Origin: a virus
Strand: one strand, 5' to 3'
DNA: 64,000 nucleotides
IMG/VR virus record: IMGVR_UViG_3300044701_001468
A model generated the notes under the pieces. The model did not search any database. It saw only the letters and a list, made by a program, of their open reading frames with translations, and was not told the origin of the DNA. Every line of letters begins with the position of its first letter. The stretch's first letter is position 1. A program made the position numbers and the translations under genes. Positions 18,230 through 24,600 of the stretch are shown here, piece after piece.

Positions 18230-18427
18230 TCATTCTACGACTTCGGTAGGAGTCGTTTCAGTTGGCTCTTCCGATTCTGGATTCAAAAGTGCTAGAGTTT
18301 CTAGACCACCTTGTAGTTTTAGGCGATATTCTTTCGCCTTTTCTAGATCTGCTTCTAGTTGAGTAATTTGCTCATTAGCAGATTTTAATTGATTTTCGAA
18401 ATTTTCTTTCAGAGTTGCAGTATCCAT
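18230..18427 (-). CDS. Small coiled-coil hypothetical protein
   Basis: 65 aa with heptad pattern and acidic tail; GAGG ribosome binding site. Confidence 0.7.
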   Translation of the reverse strand: MDTATLKENFENQLKSANEQITQLEADLEKAKEYRLKLQGGLETLALLNPESEEPTETTPTEVVE

Positions 18428-18441
18428 GATTTCCTCAATAA

Positions 18442-20151
18442 TTACAGAGTTGTTTTATTTAGTACGGAGATATGAAGACCATTCCACCAACTGGATGAAT
18501 CTTCGTATTGTGTAGTGAGAAGTTGCTTCTCATATAAAATATTTATCTTTGAAAAATTTATGAAGTCTTTTACGGATTTTACTACTCCTTCGAAATTGGC
18601 ATCATCTATGACTAGTATAAAAGTATCTTCAAATAACGGCAATAAATGTTTTAAACATTTCATTTGATCAATATAATCATGACTACCATCATAAAATATT
18701 ATATTGGGTTTAACAAATGACAAGTCTATAGATTGTAAATCTTCTATTTTTTTATCTATTAACTTTCCGTTTATTTTATATTTTTTTATGTTATCTAATA
18801 AAGTATATTTTGGTTTTGAATAACCCGACCACTGAATATCTAATCTAGCGGGTGCTATTTCAGTTTGATAATTATCTATAGCAAATCCAATTGCATCGGT
18901 GTTCATAATTGCTGGTATAAATGTGCTTCCAGCATAAGAACCCAACTCTAAATATTTGGCATCTTTTATAGAACATAAGTTGTTTAAAAAATGTCTAACT
19001 CTATTTGAAGACAATCCTTCAATAGAAAAATTTTTGTCATCAAATTTAGAAATATTTTTTCCAGAGTTATCCAAAGAATTAATTACATGTTGTACATATG
19101 GATGTAATTGTTTGTCGTATTTTTTTACTCTAGATTCTATAACTGATTCACAATAATTACATTTCCAGCAATCAAATTTACAATTTTTTATTTTTTGCCG
19201 CCAAATATCTATTGGTTTATTTTCAATATGAATGTCGTGAATATATTCGTTAAAATTTTCAAATAACAACTCTTCGTTATTTGCCCATCTTTTTATGATA
19301 TTCATAGATTCATTCAATCTCATGGCAGATTCTCTGCCATGCATTTTAAAAACATCAATTCCCAGATCTATAAATTCTTCCCAATCTTTTTTCCATGGAG
19401 GAATATTGGCAGCCTTTAAAGATGCTGCGGGATCCAACACAGACCATTTAGCACAAGAAACTCTACTAATAGAATCTCCAAAATATTCTGGATTTTCTAC
19501 TTTTCTACTATTATTATAATGATAATGTTCTGGCATGATCGGACAACCACCCCAGCAATTTTCGTTCGATAGTAAAGATAATTTTACTGGTTTCCCTATA
19601 GATTCACAATATTCCTTTGCCTCTTTAATTGCGTTAAGTTGGTCACGATCTCGCATTAAATCTCTATCGAGATTAATGTAATGAAATCCTGCCTTTGCTA
19701 AAGATACAATTTCGTTTGGTCTGGTAACTTCGCGTAAAATAGTATTTTTAATATAAAGTTCTGGAAATTTTTCTTGTATTTGTCCAGTAAGTAACCATGT
19801 AGTGTGTGGAATAGTTGCTATTCTTACGCCAGCATTATATAATGGTTCAAAATTTGTTATGAATAGATCTAAATTTTCTTGATCTGGTCGAACAAAAATA
19901 TTATTAAATGTTGCAGATAAAGGTATTCCAGTCTGTTTTGAAATATAAAGAGAATTGAATGTTGTTTGTTTTTGATCTGCAAAAATATCTCCCATAGCAT
20001 CTTGCTCAAATGGAGGCATTCTGCATGTGAAATATAAATCAAAAATATATTTTTTGTGTTCTATTAAAAATGGTATTAATGTATTTTCTACAAAATCTTT
20101 AGGAAGCTTTGGATTTAGTGGAAGACTGAAGACCTTTTGGTAATGATCCAT
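18442..20151 (-). CDS. Peptidase-U32-like (Fe-S hydroxylase family) domain fused to a class I SAM methyltransferase
   Basis: N-terminal: NENCWGGC...C, VFKMHGRE (like U32 KIEGR), CWKCNYC. C-terminal: YLELGSYAGST, IIFYDGSH, ILVIDD. Confidence 0.65.
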   Translation of the reverse strand: MDHYQKVFSLPLNPKLPKDFVENTLIPFLIEHKKYIFDLYFTCRMPPFEQDAMGDIFADQKQTTFNSLYISKQTGIPLSATFNNIFVRPDQENLDLFITNFEPLYNAGVRIATIPHTTWLLTGQIQEKFPELYIKNTILREVTRPNEIVSLAKAGFHYINLDRDLMRDRDQLNAIKEAKEYCESIGKPVKLSLLSNENCWGGCPIMPEHYHYNNSRKVENPEYFGDSISRVSCAKWSVLDPAASLKAANIPPWKKDWEEFIDLGIDVFKMHGRESAMRLNESMNIIKRWANNEELLFENFNEYIHDIHIENKPIDIWRQKIKNCKFDCWKCNYCESVIESRVKKYDKQLHPYVQHVINSLDNSGKNISKFDDKNFSIEGLSSNRVRHFLNNLCSIKDAKYLELGSYAGSTFIPAIMNTDAIGFAIDNYQTEIAPARLDIQWSGYSKPKYTLLDNIKKYKINGKLIDKKIEDLQSIDLSFVKPNIIFYDGSHDYIDQMKCLKHLLPLFEDTFILVIDDANFEGVVKSVKDFINFSKINILYEKQLLTTQYEDSSSWWNGLHISVLNKTTL

Positions 20152-21652: not shown

Positions 21653-21655
21653 CGA

Positions 21656-24600
21656 TTAAACCCCCGTGTATCCAGAAATGACACTACCAAATTCTGTTCC
21701 AGCAGCAGATGCAGCTCCACCTGGACCTACTCTGTTTACAGAACTATTGAATGTGAATGTATCTGCAGTGTAGTTCATAATACCACCTTGATTGTTCTGA
21801 GCACCATTGTACATACCACACATGAAACCATTATTATTACCTGTATGTAGGCTCTCTTCTCCTGTTGCGCCAGGTTTTGAAATAGTTGCAACTTCTACTC
21901 CAGTATCCATTGTTCTCTTAGACCAGTTAGCTCCTGTTGAATAACCACCACCAGTGTTCCAATATCCTCTATTATTTCTTGCAGAAATAGTTTTGTTTGA
22001 ACCATCTGTTCCAGGAGGACTATTCCATCCGACATATGTTTCTGTTGCCCATGGATAATAATAACCATTGCTCTTCTTAGTCCATCCATAAATAGCACCA
22101 TATCCACCAGCTGGGTTGTTTACGGCACCTTCGGGATTTCCGTTTGGTGCTAATGCACAAGTATCATTGGTTAGATTGAATCTATCTGGTCTACCATCAC
22201 CAGCACCATATACATATGCGAATCTAAAATCTCTTCTCATTAATGTTGCTCTATTTCTTGCAGATGTTACGGATGTAGTTCCAGCATTAGCATTTGTATT
22301 CATGTTAACTTTAGATACGGTTGCCGAAGTGCCATCCCAACTATCAGCAGTTGTGAATACATATGCAACCATGCCTAAACTTTGAGCTCCTGCACAATAC
22401 GCATCACTGAATGTTAGTAAGTCTCCCAAGTTTGATTGAGTTAATGTGGCATGAGTTAATGAGTTTACATTTTTCCATGATGTCGCGTTTTGATATCCAG
22501 CGAGAGTATACCCTCTAGTAATAGTAAATGCGGACTGATATTGAGTTGCTAGATCAACTTCCCAATACGCATTAGTTCCATTACTTTTTAATGTGGCACC
22601 AATTGTAGATGCGCTTTGTGCAGGTAGTGGGTTGAATAATACACCATTTTTATAAATCTCACCCTGAATATTTAAAGCACCACCAATCTGACATGCGTAT
22701 GCCGAGTTTGTTGATTCGGTTCTAATACCGACATAACCATTAGAATCAACTCTAATACCTGTGGTTCCATTACCACCAGCACGAACATAAACACCATAAC
22801 CAGATCTTGCGGAAATAAAAGTGTCTTCATTTCTACTGAGAACTAGATAATCACCATTATTTGTGTTTGTGCTATGTCTTAATGCGCCATATGTAGTATC
22901 TGCTGGCCAAGTTCTGAGTTGCATTCCACCAGCTGAGGTGATAATACCGCTAGAAGCATCAACGTTTCCACCGAATGTTGCATTATTATTAGTTAAATCT
23001 ATCGTAAGTGGCCATCTACTATTGGCAACTTGCGCCCAGTTTGGTTCAACAGCATTATTTGCTCCACCTAAAATATAGAAAAGATTACTATTTACATGAA
23101 TAAATGCACTTCTGTTATCTGAATCTTGGAAAGTAATTGTCGGTGCTGTTCCAGATAATCTCAAACCATCGCTATCTGCACCAGAAATTTGTAAATTCTG
23201 GTTCATATTTACAGCAGACCAACCATTTATGTTTAAACTATATGATGTGCTATCACTAGTTAGTTGACCATTTCCACCACTATCCAAACCAAAATAGTAT
23301 CTTCTTGTTCCGCTCCATGCGAATCCCATGTATGCCCAAGAATTATCTGTGGCATTTAGATATAACATTTGGTCGGTAGTTGTAGCAATAGTTACTGCAT
23401 CAGAGAATAAAGCAGTGCCATTGACATCTAACTTGTAACCTGCAGTTGGAGATCTACCAATACCAATTCTACTATCAGAAGTAGCAACTAATGTATTTGC
23501 AGCAGCTTCACCGCTGAACTGATACATCACTTTGGTCCATGCTCTATCTACAATTTCGAATGATGTTCCTGCTGCCGAAGAACCACCTAGTTGAATTGTG
23601 TAAGTTCCTAGAGTTCTGTCCGAACCTCTACCTCTCCAAGCTTCTCCTGTGTTTGTTGTACCGATTGTAAAACTACCACCTCTGATAGCACCAGCAACTT
23701 CTAGTTTTGTGCCAGGATTAGTTAATCCAACACCGACACGATCGTTTGTTGGGTCAACATATAATGTGTTTGTGTCAACTGTTAAACTAGCACCAGCAGC
23801 AATTGTTACGTTTCCACTTAACGTAGAAGTTCCGCCAACACTCAAGTTACTGCTTGCTCCACTGATGGTTAGTGAACCAGTCATGGTATCACCAGTCTTC
23901 AATACGTTGAGAGAAGCGGCACCAGTCAAACTAGCAGTGATAGTACCAGCAGCAAAGTTGCCAGAGGCATCACGCTGAACAGCAGCACTCAATACATTGT
24001 TCGAAGCAAATACAATGTTGCCAGCATTCCAAATGGCGTTATTATTAATTGTAACAGAACTAGACGTTGCTGCGACAATATTTAAATTGCCAGATCCATC
24101 AGTTGCATTACCACCAGAAGCAATTAATGCAACGTTATAATTAGTTGCTGCTGAAGAACTACTATTGAAATAAATTGCAGGAGATGAAGCAGTACCATCC
24201 TTTCTGCCGAGTTTTAATCTGCCAGTTCCAGTATCGCTAACAAGAGAAGCTGCGGTGAAAGTTCCAGATGAATTTATTGTGTAATCTTGGAACGCAACTC
24301 TATTAGATGCTGTACCAATTGTCAATGCTCCAGTAAAAGTACCAGTTGTCAGAACACCTCTAATAATAGTGTAGTCTAGTACATCATCAGCGTCATTATA
24401 TGTAATGATATTTGTAATCAGTATAGTTCCCGTGCCTTGCGAGTTTACATCGTAAAGATTGACGTTTTGACCAGCGAGGAATGGTGATGTGGTGAGTACA
24501 TAACCACTGACGTAAATATCATAATAAGGATTATTTGTTGTACTTAAAATATTTACTGCAGTATTGAAATTCTTTTGAGAAATATATGATGGAATATGAT

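What the first reader, a model, noticed from the sequence alone, without database searches (positions are those of the whole stretch)
18230..22560. Candidate interchangeable fibre-tip plus accessory-enzyme cassette at the fibritin position
Seen: the last about 300 aa of the fibre is a distinct aromatic/Gly-rich repeat domain, beta-propeller-like. It is followed in operon order by the 251-aa, 259-aa, U32/methyltransferase and 65-aa genes. The three large accessory genes are visibly more AT-rich than the core, and the block ends at the 18175 terminator. No wac/fibritin gene was recognised where T4 has one. Inference: a horizontally exchanged module of receptor-binding tip, chaperone, coiled-coil partner and modifying enzyme. 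It may be an undescribed virion-maturation or host-range system.
Basis: partly seen in the sequence, partly recalled or inferred. Interest (0 to 1): 0.72.

Follow-up and report, generated by a model that had tools for sequence, protein, structure and literature searches.

The report
Swappable cyanophage fibre-tip and enzyme cassette
A marine T4-like cyanophage carries a tightly linked gene set that travels as one unit among phages: a propeller-shaped tail-fibre tip, two helical partner proteins and an iron-sulfur/methyltransferase enzyme; what the enzyme acts on is unknown.

Summary
The 3215-aa tail-fibre ORF ends in a predicted six-bladed Kelch-like beta-propeller. Tightly packed 251-aa, 259-aa, 569-aa and 65-aa genes follow, closed by a strong terminator.

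The 569-aa protein is a very divergent U32-type Fe-S TIM barrel with seven invariant Cys, fused to a catechol-type SAM O-methyltransferase.

Propeller, p251, p259 and p569 keep this order in all 80 related viral contigs. p259 and p569 co-occur in 123 of about 463 cyanomyovirus records. The cassette sits at two genome positions and falls into deep allelic types that do not track the neighbouring neck genes.

A propeller-like gene, a p259 homologue and a U32-like gene lie in the same order in the unrelated Ralstonia jumbo phage RP12. So this is a cohesive module that was probably exchanged.

- The AT-richness reflects amino-acid composition, not foreign codon usage.
- The 65-aa gene is not part of the module.
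- The "fibritin position" holds only in some genomes.
- The chaperone and coiled-coil roles are untested.

In relatives, p569 is followed by one to seven 2OG-Fe(II) oxygenases or a tryptophan halogenase, which hints at a fibre-tailoring enzyme set. The enzyme's target is unknown. This scan found the same cassette earlier in other cyanophage genomes.

The parts
21656..31303 (-). Giant tail-fibre protein (3215 aa), a fusion of a phrog_5342 tail-fibre shaft with a C-terminal phrog_1417 domain
   Evidence: ORF list. PHROGs: phrog_5342 'tail fiber protein' E = 0 over residues 1097-2821; phrog_1417 E 1.4e-68 over residues 2899-3213. The same fusion occurs in L033 and L078.
21674..22531 (-). Six-bladed Kelch-like beta-propeller, the fibre tip and putative receptor-binding knob
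   Evidence: AF2 model m5e6bc3e3ea72. VIA Z 26.4 to KLHL17 Kelch domain and 25.9 to Keap1; lectins RSL and AAL at Z 16-17.5. BFVD hits to cyanophage 'sericin 1-like' homologues and to Kelch-like or virion structural proteins of jumbo phages. Stand-alone homologues aligned in A3.
20897..21652 (-). p251, phrog_1604, a helical protein of unknown function that starts 3 nt after the fibre stop codon
   Evidence: No Pfam, NCBIfam or PDB match. Present in most cassettes; order swapped with p259 in L075; absent or replaced in L080/L081.
20099..20878 (-). p259, phrog_1409, a helical protein with a conserved YWIARMGKQAA...GRIG.GNMDSI core; the constant neighbour of the U32-like gene
   Evidence: The RP12 ORF140 homologue lies directly upstream of the RP12 U32-like gene: hhalign 98.9%, E 1.2e-17; phrog_1409 E 9e-69.
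19117..20151 (-). p569 N-domain (residues 1-345): divergent U32-like TIM barrel with invariant C199, C203, C233, C324, C328, C331, C334, E197 and H209
   Evidence: Alignments A1 and A2. AF2 model. VIA Z 13.6 to U32 peptidase Mk0906 (5d88), tied with MTHFR at Z 13.8. hhalign to Serratia phage CHI14 gp040, a true PF01136 member: 93%, E 3.5e-7. Atlas neighbour clusters carry PF01136 in 20% of members.
18442..19104 (-). p569 C-domain (residues ~350-566): class I SAM-dependent, catechol-type O-methyltransferase
   Evidence: Pfam Methyltransf_24 at 18.2 bits, below the cutoff. Close homologues pass it. VIA Z 17.1 (8c9v OMT), 16.5 (TrmR 5zw3), 16.1 (MeT1 6g7d). Invariant E402, G404, G408, D426, D488, D516, D517, N519.
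18230..18427 (-). p65, phrog_580, a small coiled-coil-like protein. It is in the same transcription unit but is not a cassette member.
   Evidence: Also found in cyanomyoviruses that lack the cassette (S-PM2, S-CAM3, S-RSM4, S-WAM2). Stays next to gp13 while 1-7 other genes separate it from p569 in relatives.
18180..18208 (-). Intrinsic terminator closing the fibre/cassette operon
   Evidence: 11-bp stem, 7-nt loop, T6 tail.
18219..18226 (-). TATAAATA late-promoter-like box ahead of gp13
36006..36013 (-). Nearest upstream intergenic TATAAATA box, the likely late promoter of the operon that includes the fibre and the cassette
   Evidence: All six exact matches are on the minus strand in intergenic gaps before structural genes. 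Only intragenic 7-mer matches (21124, 18540) lie between this box and the one at 18219-18226 ahead of gp13.

Best explanation
The region is the minimal form of a conserved fibre-tip module of T4-like cyanophages that is inherited as one unit.

Shown:
- The giant tail-fibre protein ends in a six-bladed Kelch-like beta-propeller. In most relatives this domain is a separate protein.
- p251, p259 and p569 follow it in one tightly packed transcription unit that is probably late.
- p569 joins a very divergent U32-type domain with seven invariant cysteines to a catechol-type SAM O-methyltransferase.
- The four genes always travel together, occupy two different genome positions and are missing from about three quarters of cyanomyovirus records.
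- They form deep allelic types whose divergence does not track the adjacent neck genes.
- A propeller-like gene, a p259 homologue and a U32-like gene recur in the same order in an unrelated Ralstonia jumbo phage.

Inferred:
- The propeller is the distal receptor-binding (probably glycan-binding) knob.
- Whole cassettes are swapped between phage backbones by recombination, which changes host recognition.
- p259 is a dedicated partner of the U32-like enzyme, and p251 is a fibre or propeller assembly factor.
- By analogy with TrhP/TrmR and UbiU-V/UbiG, p569 hydroxylates an aromatic or heteroaromatic carbon without O2, using Fe-S clusters and a prephenate-type donor, and then O-methylates the new hydroxyl.

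The most likely target (about one in three) is the fibre tip or another virion protein made in the same late operon. That would make p569 a tailoring enzyme, alongside the 2OG-Fe(II) oxygenases and tryptophan halogenase that follow it in relatives.
For: - Synteny: the order tip, p251, p259, p569 holds in 80 IMG/VR loci and in S-CAM4 and P-SSM4.
- Co-occurrence: p569 is in 123 cyanophage records and p259 in the same 123, against about 463 records with gp15. S-CAM3 has none.
- Shared history: identity matrices correlate 0.94-0.99 within the cassette and 0.34-0.48 with the core. Backbones with 90% identical core carry p569 alleles only 59% identical. The window, with 55% core identity, is 61-63% identical in p569 to the same loci. 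The ratio of cassette to core path length is about 1-1.5 within a type or to the window, and about 17 between types.
- Fold and family.
- RP12 cluster: ORF143 is a collagen-like fibre piece, ORF142 is Kelch-like, ORF140 is phrog_1409, ORF139 is U32-like.
- Tailoring-enzyme neighbours in relatives: 1-7 tandem 2OG-Fe(II) oxygenases (PF13640, PF13759, DUF6445) and Trp_halogenase PF04820.
- Operon structure.
- Chemistry precedent: RlhA, TrhP and UbiU/V are Fe-S, prephenate-dependent hydroxylases. yrrM (trmR) lies in one operon with trhP1/trhP2, and trhO-trmR fusions exist (PMC5727448, PMC6599085, PMC10990095).
Against: - No experiment or virion proteome covers any cassette gene. The phages with published proteomes appear to lack T4-GC 351-354.
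- U32 membership rests on remote evidence. Pfam PF01136 is not matched and the signature spacing differs.
- Stand-alone U32-like homologues occur without p259 or a propeller, in sugar/radical-SAM, shikimate and other phage contexts. The enzyme family is therefore not confined to fibres.
- The AU test does not reject a tree compatible with vertical descent (p = 0.27).
- GC3 shows no foreign signature.
- The receptor-binding role of the propeller is inferred from position and fold only.
- The RP12 propeller link is weak at sequence level (hhalign 21%, E 1e-3).
- Synteny and shared history also fit simple hitch-hiking of an enzyme with an unrelated target.
Confidence: 0.55

Rival explanations
1. 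p569 is a nucleic-acid modification enzyme, a single-chain analogue of TrhP plus TrmR that converts tRNA U34 to ho5U and then mo5U, or acts on rRNA or DNA bases. It is linked to the fibre-tip genes only by shared inheritance, and it helps translation of the very AT-rich late phage genes.
For: The only characterised U32 hydroxylases that act on macromolecules are RNA enzymes (RlhA, TrhP; PMC5727448, PMC6599085). The second-best structural match of the C-domain is TrmR (Z 16.5). JGI names some homologues 'predicted O-methyltransferase YrrM'. Hydroxylase-TrmR fusions exist (PMC6599085). Window GC3 is about 0.2. U32 genes in T4-like enterobacterial phages sit among nucleotide-metabolism genes.
Against: The TrmR match is tied with many catechol-type O-methyltransferases (Z 14-17). 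No RNA-binding or TrhP-type C-terminal domain was detected. The gene sits in a late structural operon and never leaves the propeller and p259 genes, even in RP12 and after relocation. Its neighbours are P4H-like oxygenases and a Trp halogenase, not RNA enzymes.
Confidence: 0.2
2. p569 and the neighbouring oxygenases are auxiliary metabolic or host-surface-modifying enzymes, acting for example on a quinone, another aromatic metabolite, or envelope glycans. They have collected in a hypervariable island beside the fibre genes.
For: Relatives of the C-domain are fused to glycosyltransferases (RXYLT1_C/GT47-like, GT2). One stand-alone U32-like homologue lies in a sugar-nucleotide/radical-SAM cluster and another directly after shikimate genes and pheA. 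S-CAM3 carries sugar-nucleotide genes at the same position. UbiU/V with UbiG is a hydroxylate-then-O-methylate precedent (PMC10990095).
Against: The fixed order and perfect co-occurrence with the propeller and p259 across 80 loci, two genome positions and RP12 are not expected for a free-standing metabolic gene. There is tight operon packing with a 53-nt p259/p569 overlap. No transport or pathway partners are present in the window.
Confidence: 0.15
3. The cassette is vertically inherited. Its deep 'types' reflect bursts of diversifying selection on host-recognition genes plus repeated loss, not exchange between backbones.
For: The unrooted cassette tree is compatible with the core split, and the AU test does not reject it (p = 0.27). 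GC3 matches the neighbouring structural genes. Receptor-binding proteins are known to evolve fast.
Against: The conserved enzyme p569 would need a roughly 8-fold acceleration (about 17-fold for the whole cassette) on three separate stems, followed by a return to 0.7-1.5 times the core rate within each type. The window is the core outgroup, yet it is closer to types II and III in p569 than those types are to each other. The block occupies two genome positions. A p259 plus U32-like pair exists in an unrelated jumbo phage.
Confidence: 0.2

Closest known systems
B. subtilis yrrM-yrrN-yrrO operon (TrmR with TrhP1/TrhP2) and E. coli TrhP/RlhA: U32 Fe-S, prephenate-dependent hydroxylases followed by a catechol-type O-methyltransferase
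   Same: A U32-related domain is combined with a COMT-like SAM O-methyltransferase, which implies a hydroxylate-then-O-methylate sequence. There are essential-looking Cys clusters. TrmR is among the best structural matches of the C-domain (PMC6599085, PMC5727448).
   Different: Here the two parts are one polypeptide. The U32 part fails the Pfam model and has E-x-C-x3-C instead of E-x7-C-x6-C, plus an extra C-x3-C-x2-C-x2-C cluster. No TrhP or RlhA C-terminal domain is present. The gene is in a phage late structural operon with a dedicated p259 partner. The substrate is unknown.
UbiU-UbiV with UbiG (O2-independent ubiquinone ring hydroxylation followed by O-methylation)
   Same: The chemical logic is the same, and so is the dependence of U32 proteins on a partner subunit (PMC10990095). 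One stand-alone homologue lies directly after shikimate genes and pheA, the source of prephenate.
   Different: There are no prenyl-quinone pathway genes nearby. p259 is unrelated to U32 proteins. The context is tail fibres.
T-even gp37-gp38 type adhesin plus chaperone cassettes that are exchanged between phages to change host range
   Same: A distal fibre tip is followed immediately by small accessory genes. Inheritance is modular and divergence is decoupled from the core genes.
   Different: There is no homology to gp37, gp38 or gp57A. The tip is a Kelch-like propeller, and the cassette includes a redox/methyl-transfer enzyme. In relatives it also includes 2OG oxygenases or a halogenase.
Kelch-like propeller proteins of jumbo phages (BcepSaruman, RP12, PhiPA3 and Noxifer virion structural proteins)
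   Same: The fold is the same by Foldseek, and several of these proteins are annotated as virion proteins. RP12 also carries the p259 and U32-like genes next to its copy.
   Different: Sequence identity is only 11-20%. No Pfam Kelch motif is detected in the cyanophage domain.
PHROGs 1417/1604/1409/1458 and T4-GC 351-354 of Sullivan et al. 2010
   Same: These are the same gene families. They are already catalogued and already co-distributed in P-SSM4, P-HM2, Syn19, Syn33 and S-ShM2.
   Different: They are listed only as hypothetical proteins ('sericin 1-like' for the propeller). No fold, enzyme assignment or module concept is attached to them.

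Membership tests
Peptidase U32 family (PF01136; TrhP, RlhA, UbiU/UbiV) | Match to the Pfam PF01136 model above the gathering score | tested here: not met
   p569 has no PF01136 hit at E <= 0.01. Only 1 of 36 family members gives E 0.033.
Peptidase U32 family (PF01136; TrhP, RlhA, UbiU/UbiV) | Detectable homology to a bona fide member by profile comparison | tested here: met
   hhalign of A2 against Serratia phage CHI14 gp040 (PF01136 E 1.4e-11): probability 93%, E 3.5e-7, 244 columns. 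The E-x-C...C and K-x-H/S-G-R motifs align. Atlas neighbour clusters carry PF01136 in 20% of members.
Peptidase U32 family (PF01136; TrhP, RlhA, UbiU/UbiV) | TIM-barrel fold like Mk0906 (PDB 5d88) | tested here: inconclusive
   VIA Z 13.6, rmsd 3.7 A, 218 of 247 residues. This ties with MTHFR at Z 13.8. The model has 569 residues and the N-domain was not folded alone.
Peptidase U32 family (PF01136; TrhP, RlhA, UbiU/UbiV) | Signature E-x7-C-x6-C (RlhA E161, C169, C176) plus further Cys ligands for a 4Fe-4S cluster | tested here: not met
   The spacing is E197-x-C199-x3-C203. Further invariant Cys are C233 and C324-x3-C328-x2-C331-x2-C334 (PMC5727448). An equivalent set of ligands is plausible but the canonical pattern is absent.
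Peptidase U32 family (PF01136; TrhP, RlhA, UbiU/UbiV) | Fe-S cluster binding and prephenate-dependent hydroxylase activity | not testable with these tools
   Needs anaerobic purification, spectroscopy and assays.
Cation-dependent class I SAM O-methyltransferases (Methyltransf_24 / COMT / TrmR type) | Pfam PF13578 above the gathering score | tested here: inconclusive
   The window protein scores 18.2 bits against a cutoff of 26.3. Stand-alone and fused relatives of the C-domain reach 27.7-30.9 bits, and PF13578 is precomputed for many 70-80% identical homologues.
Cation-dependent class I SAM O-methyltransferases (Methyltransf_24 / COMT / TrmR type) | Rossmann-like methyltransferase fold closest to catechol-type O-methyltransferases | tested here: met
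   VIA Z 17.1 (8c9v), 16.5 (TrmR 5zw3), 16.1 (MeT1 6g7d), 16.0 (3tr6), over 166-186 aligned residues. Foldseek agrees.
Cation-dependent class I SAM O-methyltransferases (Methyltransf_24 / COMT / TrmR type) | SAM motif I (E/D-x-G-x-G), an acidic residue after strand 2, and an Asp/Asp/Asn metal triad | tested here: inconclusive
   E402, G404, G408, D426, D488, D516, D517 and N519 are invariant in A1. Their assignment to SAM and metal sites is by position and my knowledge of COMT-type enzymes, not by a residue-level structural superposition.
Kelch-type six-bladed beta-propeller | Six four-stranded blades superposing on Kelch domains | tested here: met
   VIA Z 26.4, 25.9 and 25.9 to KLHL17, Keap1 and KLHL12, rmsd 2.7-2.8 A over 264-270 residues. 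The model has pLDDT 76.
Kelch-type six-bladed beta-propeller | Pfam Kelch repeat motif | tested here: not met
   No Pfam or NCBIfam family matches the giant ORF or its last 514 aa.
T4 fibritin (wac) | Fibritin homologue between the fibre genes and gp13 | tested here: not met
   No fibritin match for p65, p251, p259, p569 or the giant ORF in Pfam, NCBIfam or PHROGs.
Exchangeable receptor-binding-tip plus accessory-gene cassette (T-even gp37/gp38 kind) | Tip and accessory genes are inherited together and their history is decoupled from the core genes | tested here: met
   Caveat: the discordance is in depth, not in topology (AU p = 0.27).
Exchangeable receptor-binding-tip plus accessory-gene cassette (T-even gp37/gp38 kind) | The tip binds the host receptor and the accessory proteins act as assembly chaperones | not testable with these tools
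   Needs adsorption, host-range and co-expression experiments.

The most novel reading that the evidence does not exclude
The cassette, together with the 2OG-Fe(II) oxygenases and tryptophan halogenase attached to it in relatives, is a post-translational tailoring system for virion proteins. A U32-like Fe-S enzyme, guided by p259, would hydroxylate aromatic residues of the Kelch-like fibre tip without O2. The fused O-methyltransferase would then cap the hydroxyls. The receptor-binding surface of abundant marine cyanophages would thus be chemically modified, and each swappable cassette would bring its own enzyme.
Probability: 0.25. Interest if true: 0.85.

Novelty: new variant of a known kind. 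Interest (0 to 1): 0.62.

Why it matters
T4-like cyanophages are among the most abundant viruses in the sea, and how they recognise hosts is poorly understood.

This work gives folds and a module concept to four catalogued 'hypothetical' families (PHROGs 1417, 1604, 1409, 1458). It shows that a Kelch-like propeller tip is inherited, and probably exchanged, together with its own Fe-S/methyltransferase enzyme. The same pairing appears in an unrelated Ralstonia jumbo phage.

If the enzyme tailors the fibre, this would be a new kind of virion maturation and a new substrate class for U32-type hydroxylases. If it acts on RNA or a metabolite, it is still a new single-chain hydroxylase/O-methyltransferase. 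Either way it can be tested directly in cultured phages such as Syn19, S-RIM2, P-SSM4 and P-HM2.

Tried and rejected
- Megablast of the region against 50,697 phage records found nothing. The phage has no close isolate: best gp15 identity is 60.7%.
- Pfam and NCBIfam gave nothing for p251, p259 or the fibre.
- phmmer and hmmsearch against PDB sequences gave nothing for p569 or the A2 profile. For p259 and p251 they gave only coiled-coil noise, such as SH3BP5 at E 0.004.
- The Atlas hit of p259 to ParB/RepB clusters (score 0.86, 121-138 shared features) is below the reliable range and was discarded.
- p251 and p259 are not paralogues (hhalign 1.6%).
- RP12 ORF141 matches neither p251 nor p259.
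- The whole-model Foldseek search was dominated by two-domain proteins such as PRMT5 and pyruvate kinase, and was uninformative for the N-domain.
No whole genome is held for this window.
- I looked for virion proteomics of the cassette genes in Sullivan et al. 2010. T4-GC 351-354 are listed only as hypothetical, and the coordinate columns filled for them did not look like those of the three phages with proteomes, though I did not map the columns to phage names.
- A literature search for U32 together with cyanophage found nothing relevant.
- Compositional transfer signal was rejected, because GC3 of the cassette equals that of neighbouring structural genes here and in relatives.
- Topological conflict between cassette and core was not demonstrated (AU p = 0.27).
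- Membership of the 65-aa gene in the cassette was rejected.

Full report
**What is there.** The window comes from a T4-like cyanomyovirus with no close cultured relative. Megablast found nothing, and the best gp15 identity to any isolate is 60.7%. On the minus strand the order is:
- a 3215-aa ORF (21656-31303);
- p251 (20897-21652);
- p259 (20099-20878);
- p569 (18442-20151);
- p65 (18230-18427);
- gp13, gp14 and gp15.

The genes are packed with gaps of 3, 18 and 14 nt, and p259 and p569 overlap by 53 nt. An 11-bp-stem terminator with a T6 tail lies at 18208-18180. A TATAAATA box before gp13 follows it.

Exact TATAAATA boxes occur six times in the window. All are on the minus strand, in intergenic gaps before structural genes. 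The nearest one upstream of the cassette is at 36006. Between it and the box before gp13 (18219-18226) there are only two intragenic 7-mer matches, at 21124 and 18540. The cassette therefore most likely belongs to a late structural operon. This is inferred from sequence, not measured.

**The fibre tip.** The giant ORF matches phrog_5342 'tail fiber protein' over most of its length and phrog_1417 (unknown function) over residues 2899-3213. In most relatives the phrog_1417 part is a separate ORF of 377-690 aa. It is fused to a giant ORF only here, in L033 and in L078.

An AlphaFold2 model of the last 400 residues (pLDDT 76, pTM 0.70) gives a six-bladed propeller. It superposes on Kelch domains at Z 26.4-25.9, rmsd 2.7-2.8 A over 264-270 residues. 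Propeller lectins match further down the list. In the viral structure library it matches cyanophage 'sericin 1-like' proteins and Kelch-like proteins of jumbo phages, some annotated as virion structural proteins. A receptor-binding role is inferred from fold and position.

**The enzyme.** An exhaustive search shows that the two halves of p569 occur separately elsewhere. Residues 1-345 appear as stand-alone proteins of about 340 aa. Residues 350-566 appear as methyltransferases of about 210 aa, or fused to glycosyltransferases.

The C-half is a class I SAM O-methyltransferase of the catechol type:
- VIA Z 17.1-16.0 to bacterial O-methyltransferases, TrmR and MeT1;
- Pfam Methyltransf_24 is passed by relatives but not by this protein itself;
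- the expected Gly-rich and acidic positions are invariant.

The N-half is a TIM barrel with seven invariant cysteines: C199-x3-C203, C233, and C324-x3-C328-x2-C331-x2-C334. These lie in low-confidence loops of the model. It fails the Pfam U32 model. Three independent lines nevertheless tie it to the U32 family:
- a profile-profile match to a true PF01136 protein of Serratia phage CHI14 (93%, E 3.5e-7, 244 columns);
- a fold match to the U32 protein Mk0906 (Z 13.6, tied with MTHFR);
- language-model neighbour clusters that partly carry PF01136.

Characterised U32 proteins (RlhA, TrhP, UbiU/V) are Fe-S, prephenate-dependent hydroxylases that work without O2. In B. subtilis the O-methyltransferase TrmR lies in one operon with TrhP1 and TrhP2 (PMC5727448, PMC6599085, PMC10990095). 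A hydroxylate-then-O-methylate reaction is therefore the most coherent chemistry for p569. It is inference.

**p251 and p259.** Both are helical, K/E-rich proteins with no match in Pfam, NCBIfam or PDB sequences. They are not paralogues. p259 has a sharply conserved core and is found only in this kind of cassette: 424 homologues, all unnamed.

**Is it a module?** Yes, on several counts.
- In 80 viral contigs fetched through p569, the order propeller, p251, p259, p569 is kept wherever the contig reaches. Minor variants exist in the deepest clade: tandem propeller paralogues, p251 after p259 or missing.
- Among isolates, p569 is in 123 cyanophage records and p259 in the same number. About 463 cyanophage records carry gp15, so the cassette is accessory. 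These are counts of records, which include many near-identical isolates. S-CAM3 has no copy and carries other fibre and sugar-nucleotide genes at that position.
- The block lies just before gp13 in S-CAM4-type genomes, and far from the neck genes, next to denV, in P-SSM4-type genomes.

**Ralstonia phage RP12.** This unrelated jumbo phage has the following genes in this order:
- ORF143, a collagen-like fibre fragment;
- ORF142, a 292-aa Kelch-like protein;
- ORF141;
- ORF140, a clear p259 homologue (hhalign 98.9%, E 1.2e-17; phrog_1409 E 9e-69);
- ORF139, a U32-like protein without the methyltransferase half.

This recurrence argues for a functional link, at least between p259 and the U32-like enzyme. 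The link to the propeller is weaker at sequence level (hhalign 21%, E 1e-3).

**Is it exchanged?** For 15 genomes with all genes present, the pairwise-identity matrices of the four cassette genes correlate 0.94-0.99 with each other. They correlate only 0.34-0.48 with gp13/gp15, whereas gp13 against gp15 gives 0.91.

Backbones whose neck genes are 82-93% identical carry three cassette types, and p569 is only 55-59% identical between types. The window's neck genes are only 55-58% identical to all of these backbones, yet its p569 is 56-63% identical to theirs.

On maximum-likelihood trees the core has one long split, {window, L034} against the rest (100/99). The cassette forms five deep lineages. 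The ratio of cassette to core path length is about 1-1.5 within a type or to the window, and about 17 between types. Replacement of whole cassettes by recombination explains this simply.

The alternative is strict vertical descent with three independent bursts of acceleration. It is not excluded, because the unrooted topologies are compatible and the AU test gives p = 0.27.

Composition gives no support for transfer. Cassette GC3 (0.19) equals that of the giant structural genes upstream (0.12-0.22). The low total GC comes from codon positions 1 and 2, and the same holds in relatives.

- The 65-aa gene (phrog_580) also occurs in phages without the cassette. It stays with gp13 while other genes are inserted between it and p569. 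It is not a member.
- The window holds the minimal version of the cassette. In relatives p569 is followed, often with overlapping stop and start codons, by one to seven tandem 2OG-Fe(II) oxygenase genes (PF13640 P4H-like, PF13759, DUF6445). In the deepest clade a tryptophan halogenase follows it (PF04820, E 1.4e-90).

The region thus collects fibre or lectin-like tips together with oxidative tailoring enzymes. This is the main, purely contextual reason to favour a virion-protein target.

**Against the tailoring idea.** No proteome or experiment covers these genes. Stand-alone U32-like homologues occur without p259 or a propeller:
- in a sugar-nucleotide/radical-SAM cluster;
- directly after shikimate genes and pheA;
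- in other phage contigs.

The characterised macromolecular substrates of U32 hydroxylases are RNAs. I therefore put a virion-protein target at roughly one in three, an RNA or DNA target at one in five, and a metabolite or envelope target somewhat lower.

**Novelty and earlier notes.** The gene families are catalogued only as hypothetical: PHROGs 1417, 1604, 1409 and 1458, and T4-GC 351-354. After my own analysis I consulted this scan's notes. They show that the same U32-like/O-methyltransferase fusion and its tail-fibre-linked cassette were already noted and followed up in other cyanophage genomes, with conclusions that agree with mine.

- the Kelch-like fold of the tip;
- the decoupling of cassette and core divergence;
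- the RP12 counterpart;
- the exclusion of p65;
- the codon-position analysis of the AT-richness.

I rate this a new variant of a known kind: an exchangeable fibre-tip cassette that here carries its own Fe-S/methyl-transfer enzyme.

Noticed in passing
window 20099-20151 (minus strand): The end of p259 and the start of p569 overlap by 53 nt in different frames. Both reading frames are conserved across several cassette types: the LQS..KSK tail of p259 and the invariant F8, S9, P11, N13, K15 of p569. This suggests translational coupling. Other types instead have a gap of 170-290 nt.
   Followed up: partly
L022:9671-13527; also L008, L010, L012, L014, L020, L025, L030: Up to seven tandem genes of about 190 aa follow p569 in relatives, most of them 2OG-Fe(II) oxygenases (PF13640 or PF13759). 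Other cassette types have a single PF13759 or DUF6445 gene. The window has none.
   Followed up: partly
L082:9704-11209, L081:5703-7211, L078:11551-13047: In the deepest-branching cassette clade a tryptophan halogenase (PF04820, E 1.4e-90) lies directly after p569, or within 2 kb of it, and a 2OG-Fe(II) oxygenase follows. That clade also has two or three tandem propeller paralogues.
   Followed up: partly
L094 (Ralstonia phage RP12, NC_041911.1) 4393-9056: ORF143 (collagen-like fibre fragment), ORF142 (Kelch-like, 292 aa), ORF141, ORF140 (phrog_1409, the p259 family), ORF139 (U32-like domain only), ORF138 (DUF401/CitMHS-like membrane protein). This counterpart of the cassette in a jumbo phage lacks the methyltransferase.
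   Followed up: partly
L089:902-9125: A stand-alone U32-like homologue (37% identical to the p569 N-domain) lies directly after a full set of shikimate-pathway genes and chorismate mutase/prephenate dehydratase, and before a HemN-like radical SAM gene. This fits a prephenate-using enzyme.
   Followed up: no
L087:5588-16719: Another stand-alone homologue sits among four radical SAM genes, a split transketolase, a GT2, epimerases, a PIG-L deacetylase and a UDP-glucose dehydrogenase. The 109-kb contig also encodes a Volactin-like protein and DHFR.
   Followed up: no
L093 (Serratia phage CHI14) 3488-4657, and about 59 other T4-like enterobacterial phage records: True PF01136 U32 'peptidase' genes occur in Tevenvirinae of Klebsiella, Serratia, Yersinia, Edwardsiella and Proteus. 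They lie between sugar-phosphate isomerase and nucleotidyltransferase genes and thymidylate synthase and kinase genes. Their function in phages is unexplored.
   Followed up: no
window, whole length: The 7-mer ATAAATA occurs 21 times, 19 of them on the minus (coding) strand and many just upstream of gene starts (for example 2567, 4100, 5282, 7800, 10636, 15234, 18219). The total count is below chance expectation, so the strand and position bias rather than the number marks these as late-promoter boxes.
   Followed up: partly
window 31869-58099 (minus strand): Further very large structural ORFs (1333, 2879 and 3241 aa) and baseplate wedge genes have GC3 of only 0.12-0.21, clearly lower than the head and neck genes (0.26-0.41). 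The GC3 step lies near 18.2 kb.
   Followed up: no
L001 (S-CAM4) 11442-12344: A 300-aa protein with a fibrinogen C-terminal-like domain (PF00147, E 1.9e-6) lies between a DUF6445 gene and a 2OG-Fe(II) oxygenase gene downstream of p569. It may be a second lectin-like tip in the same region.
   Followed up: no
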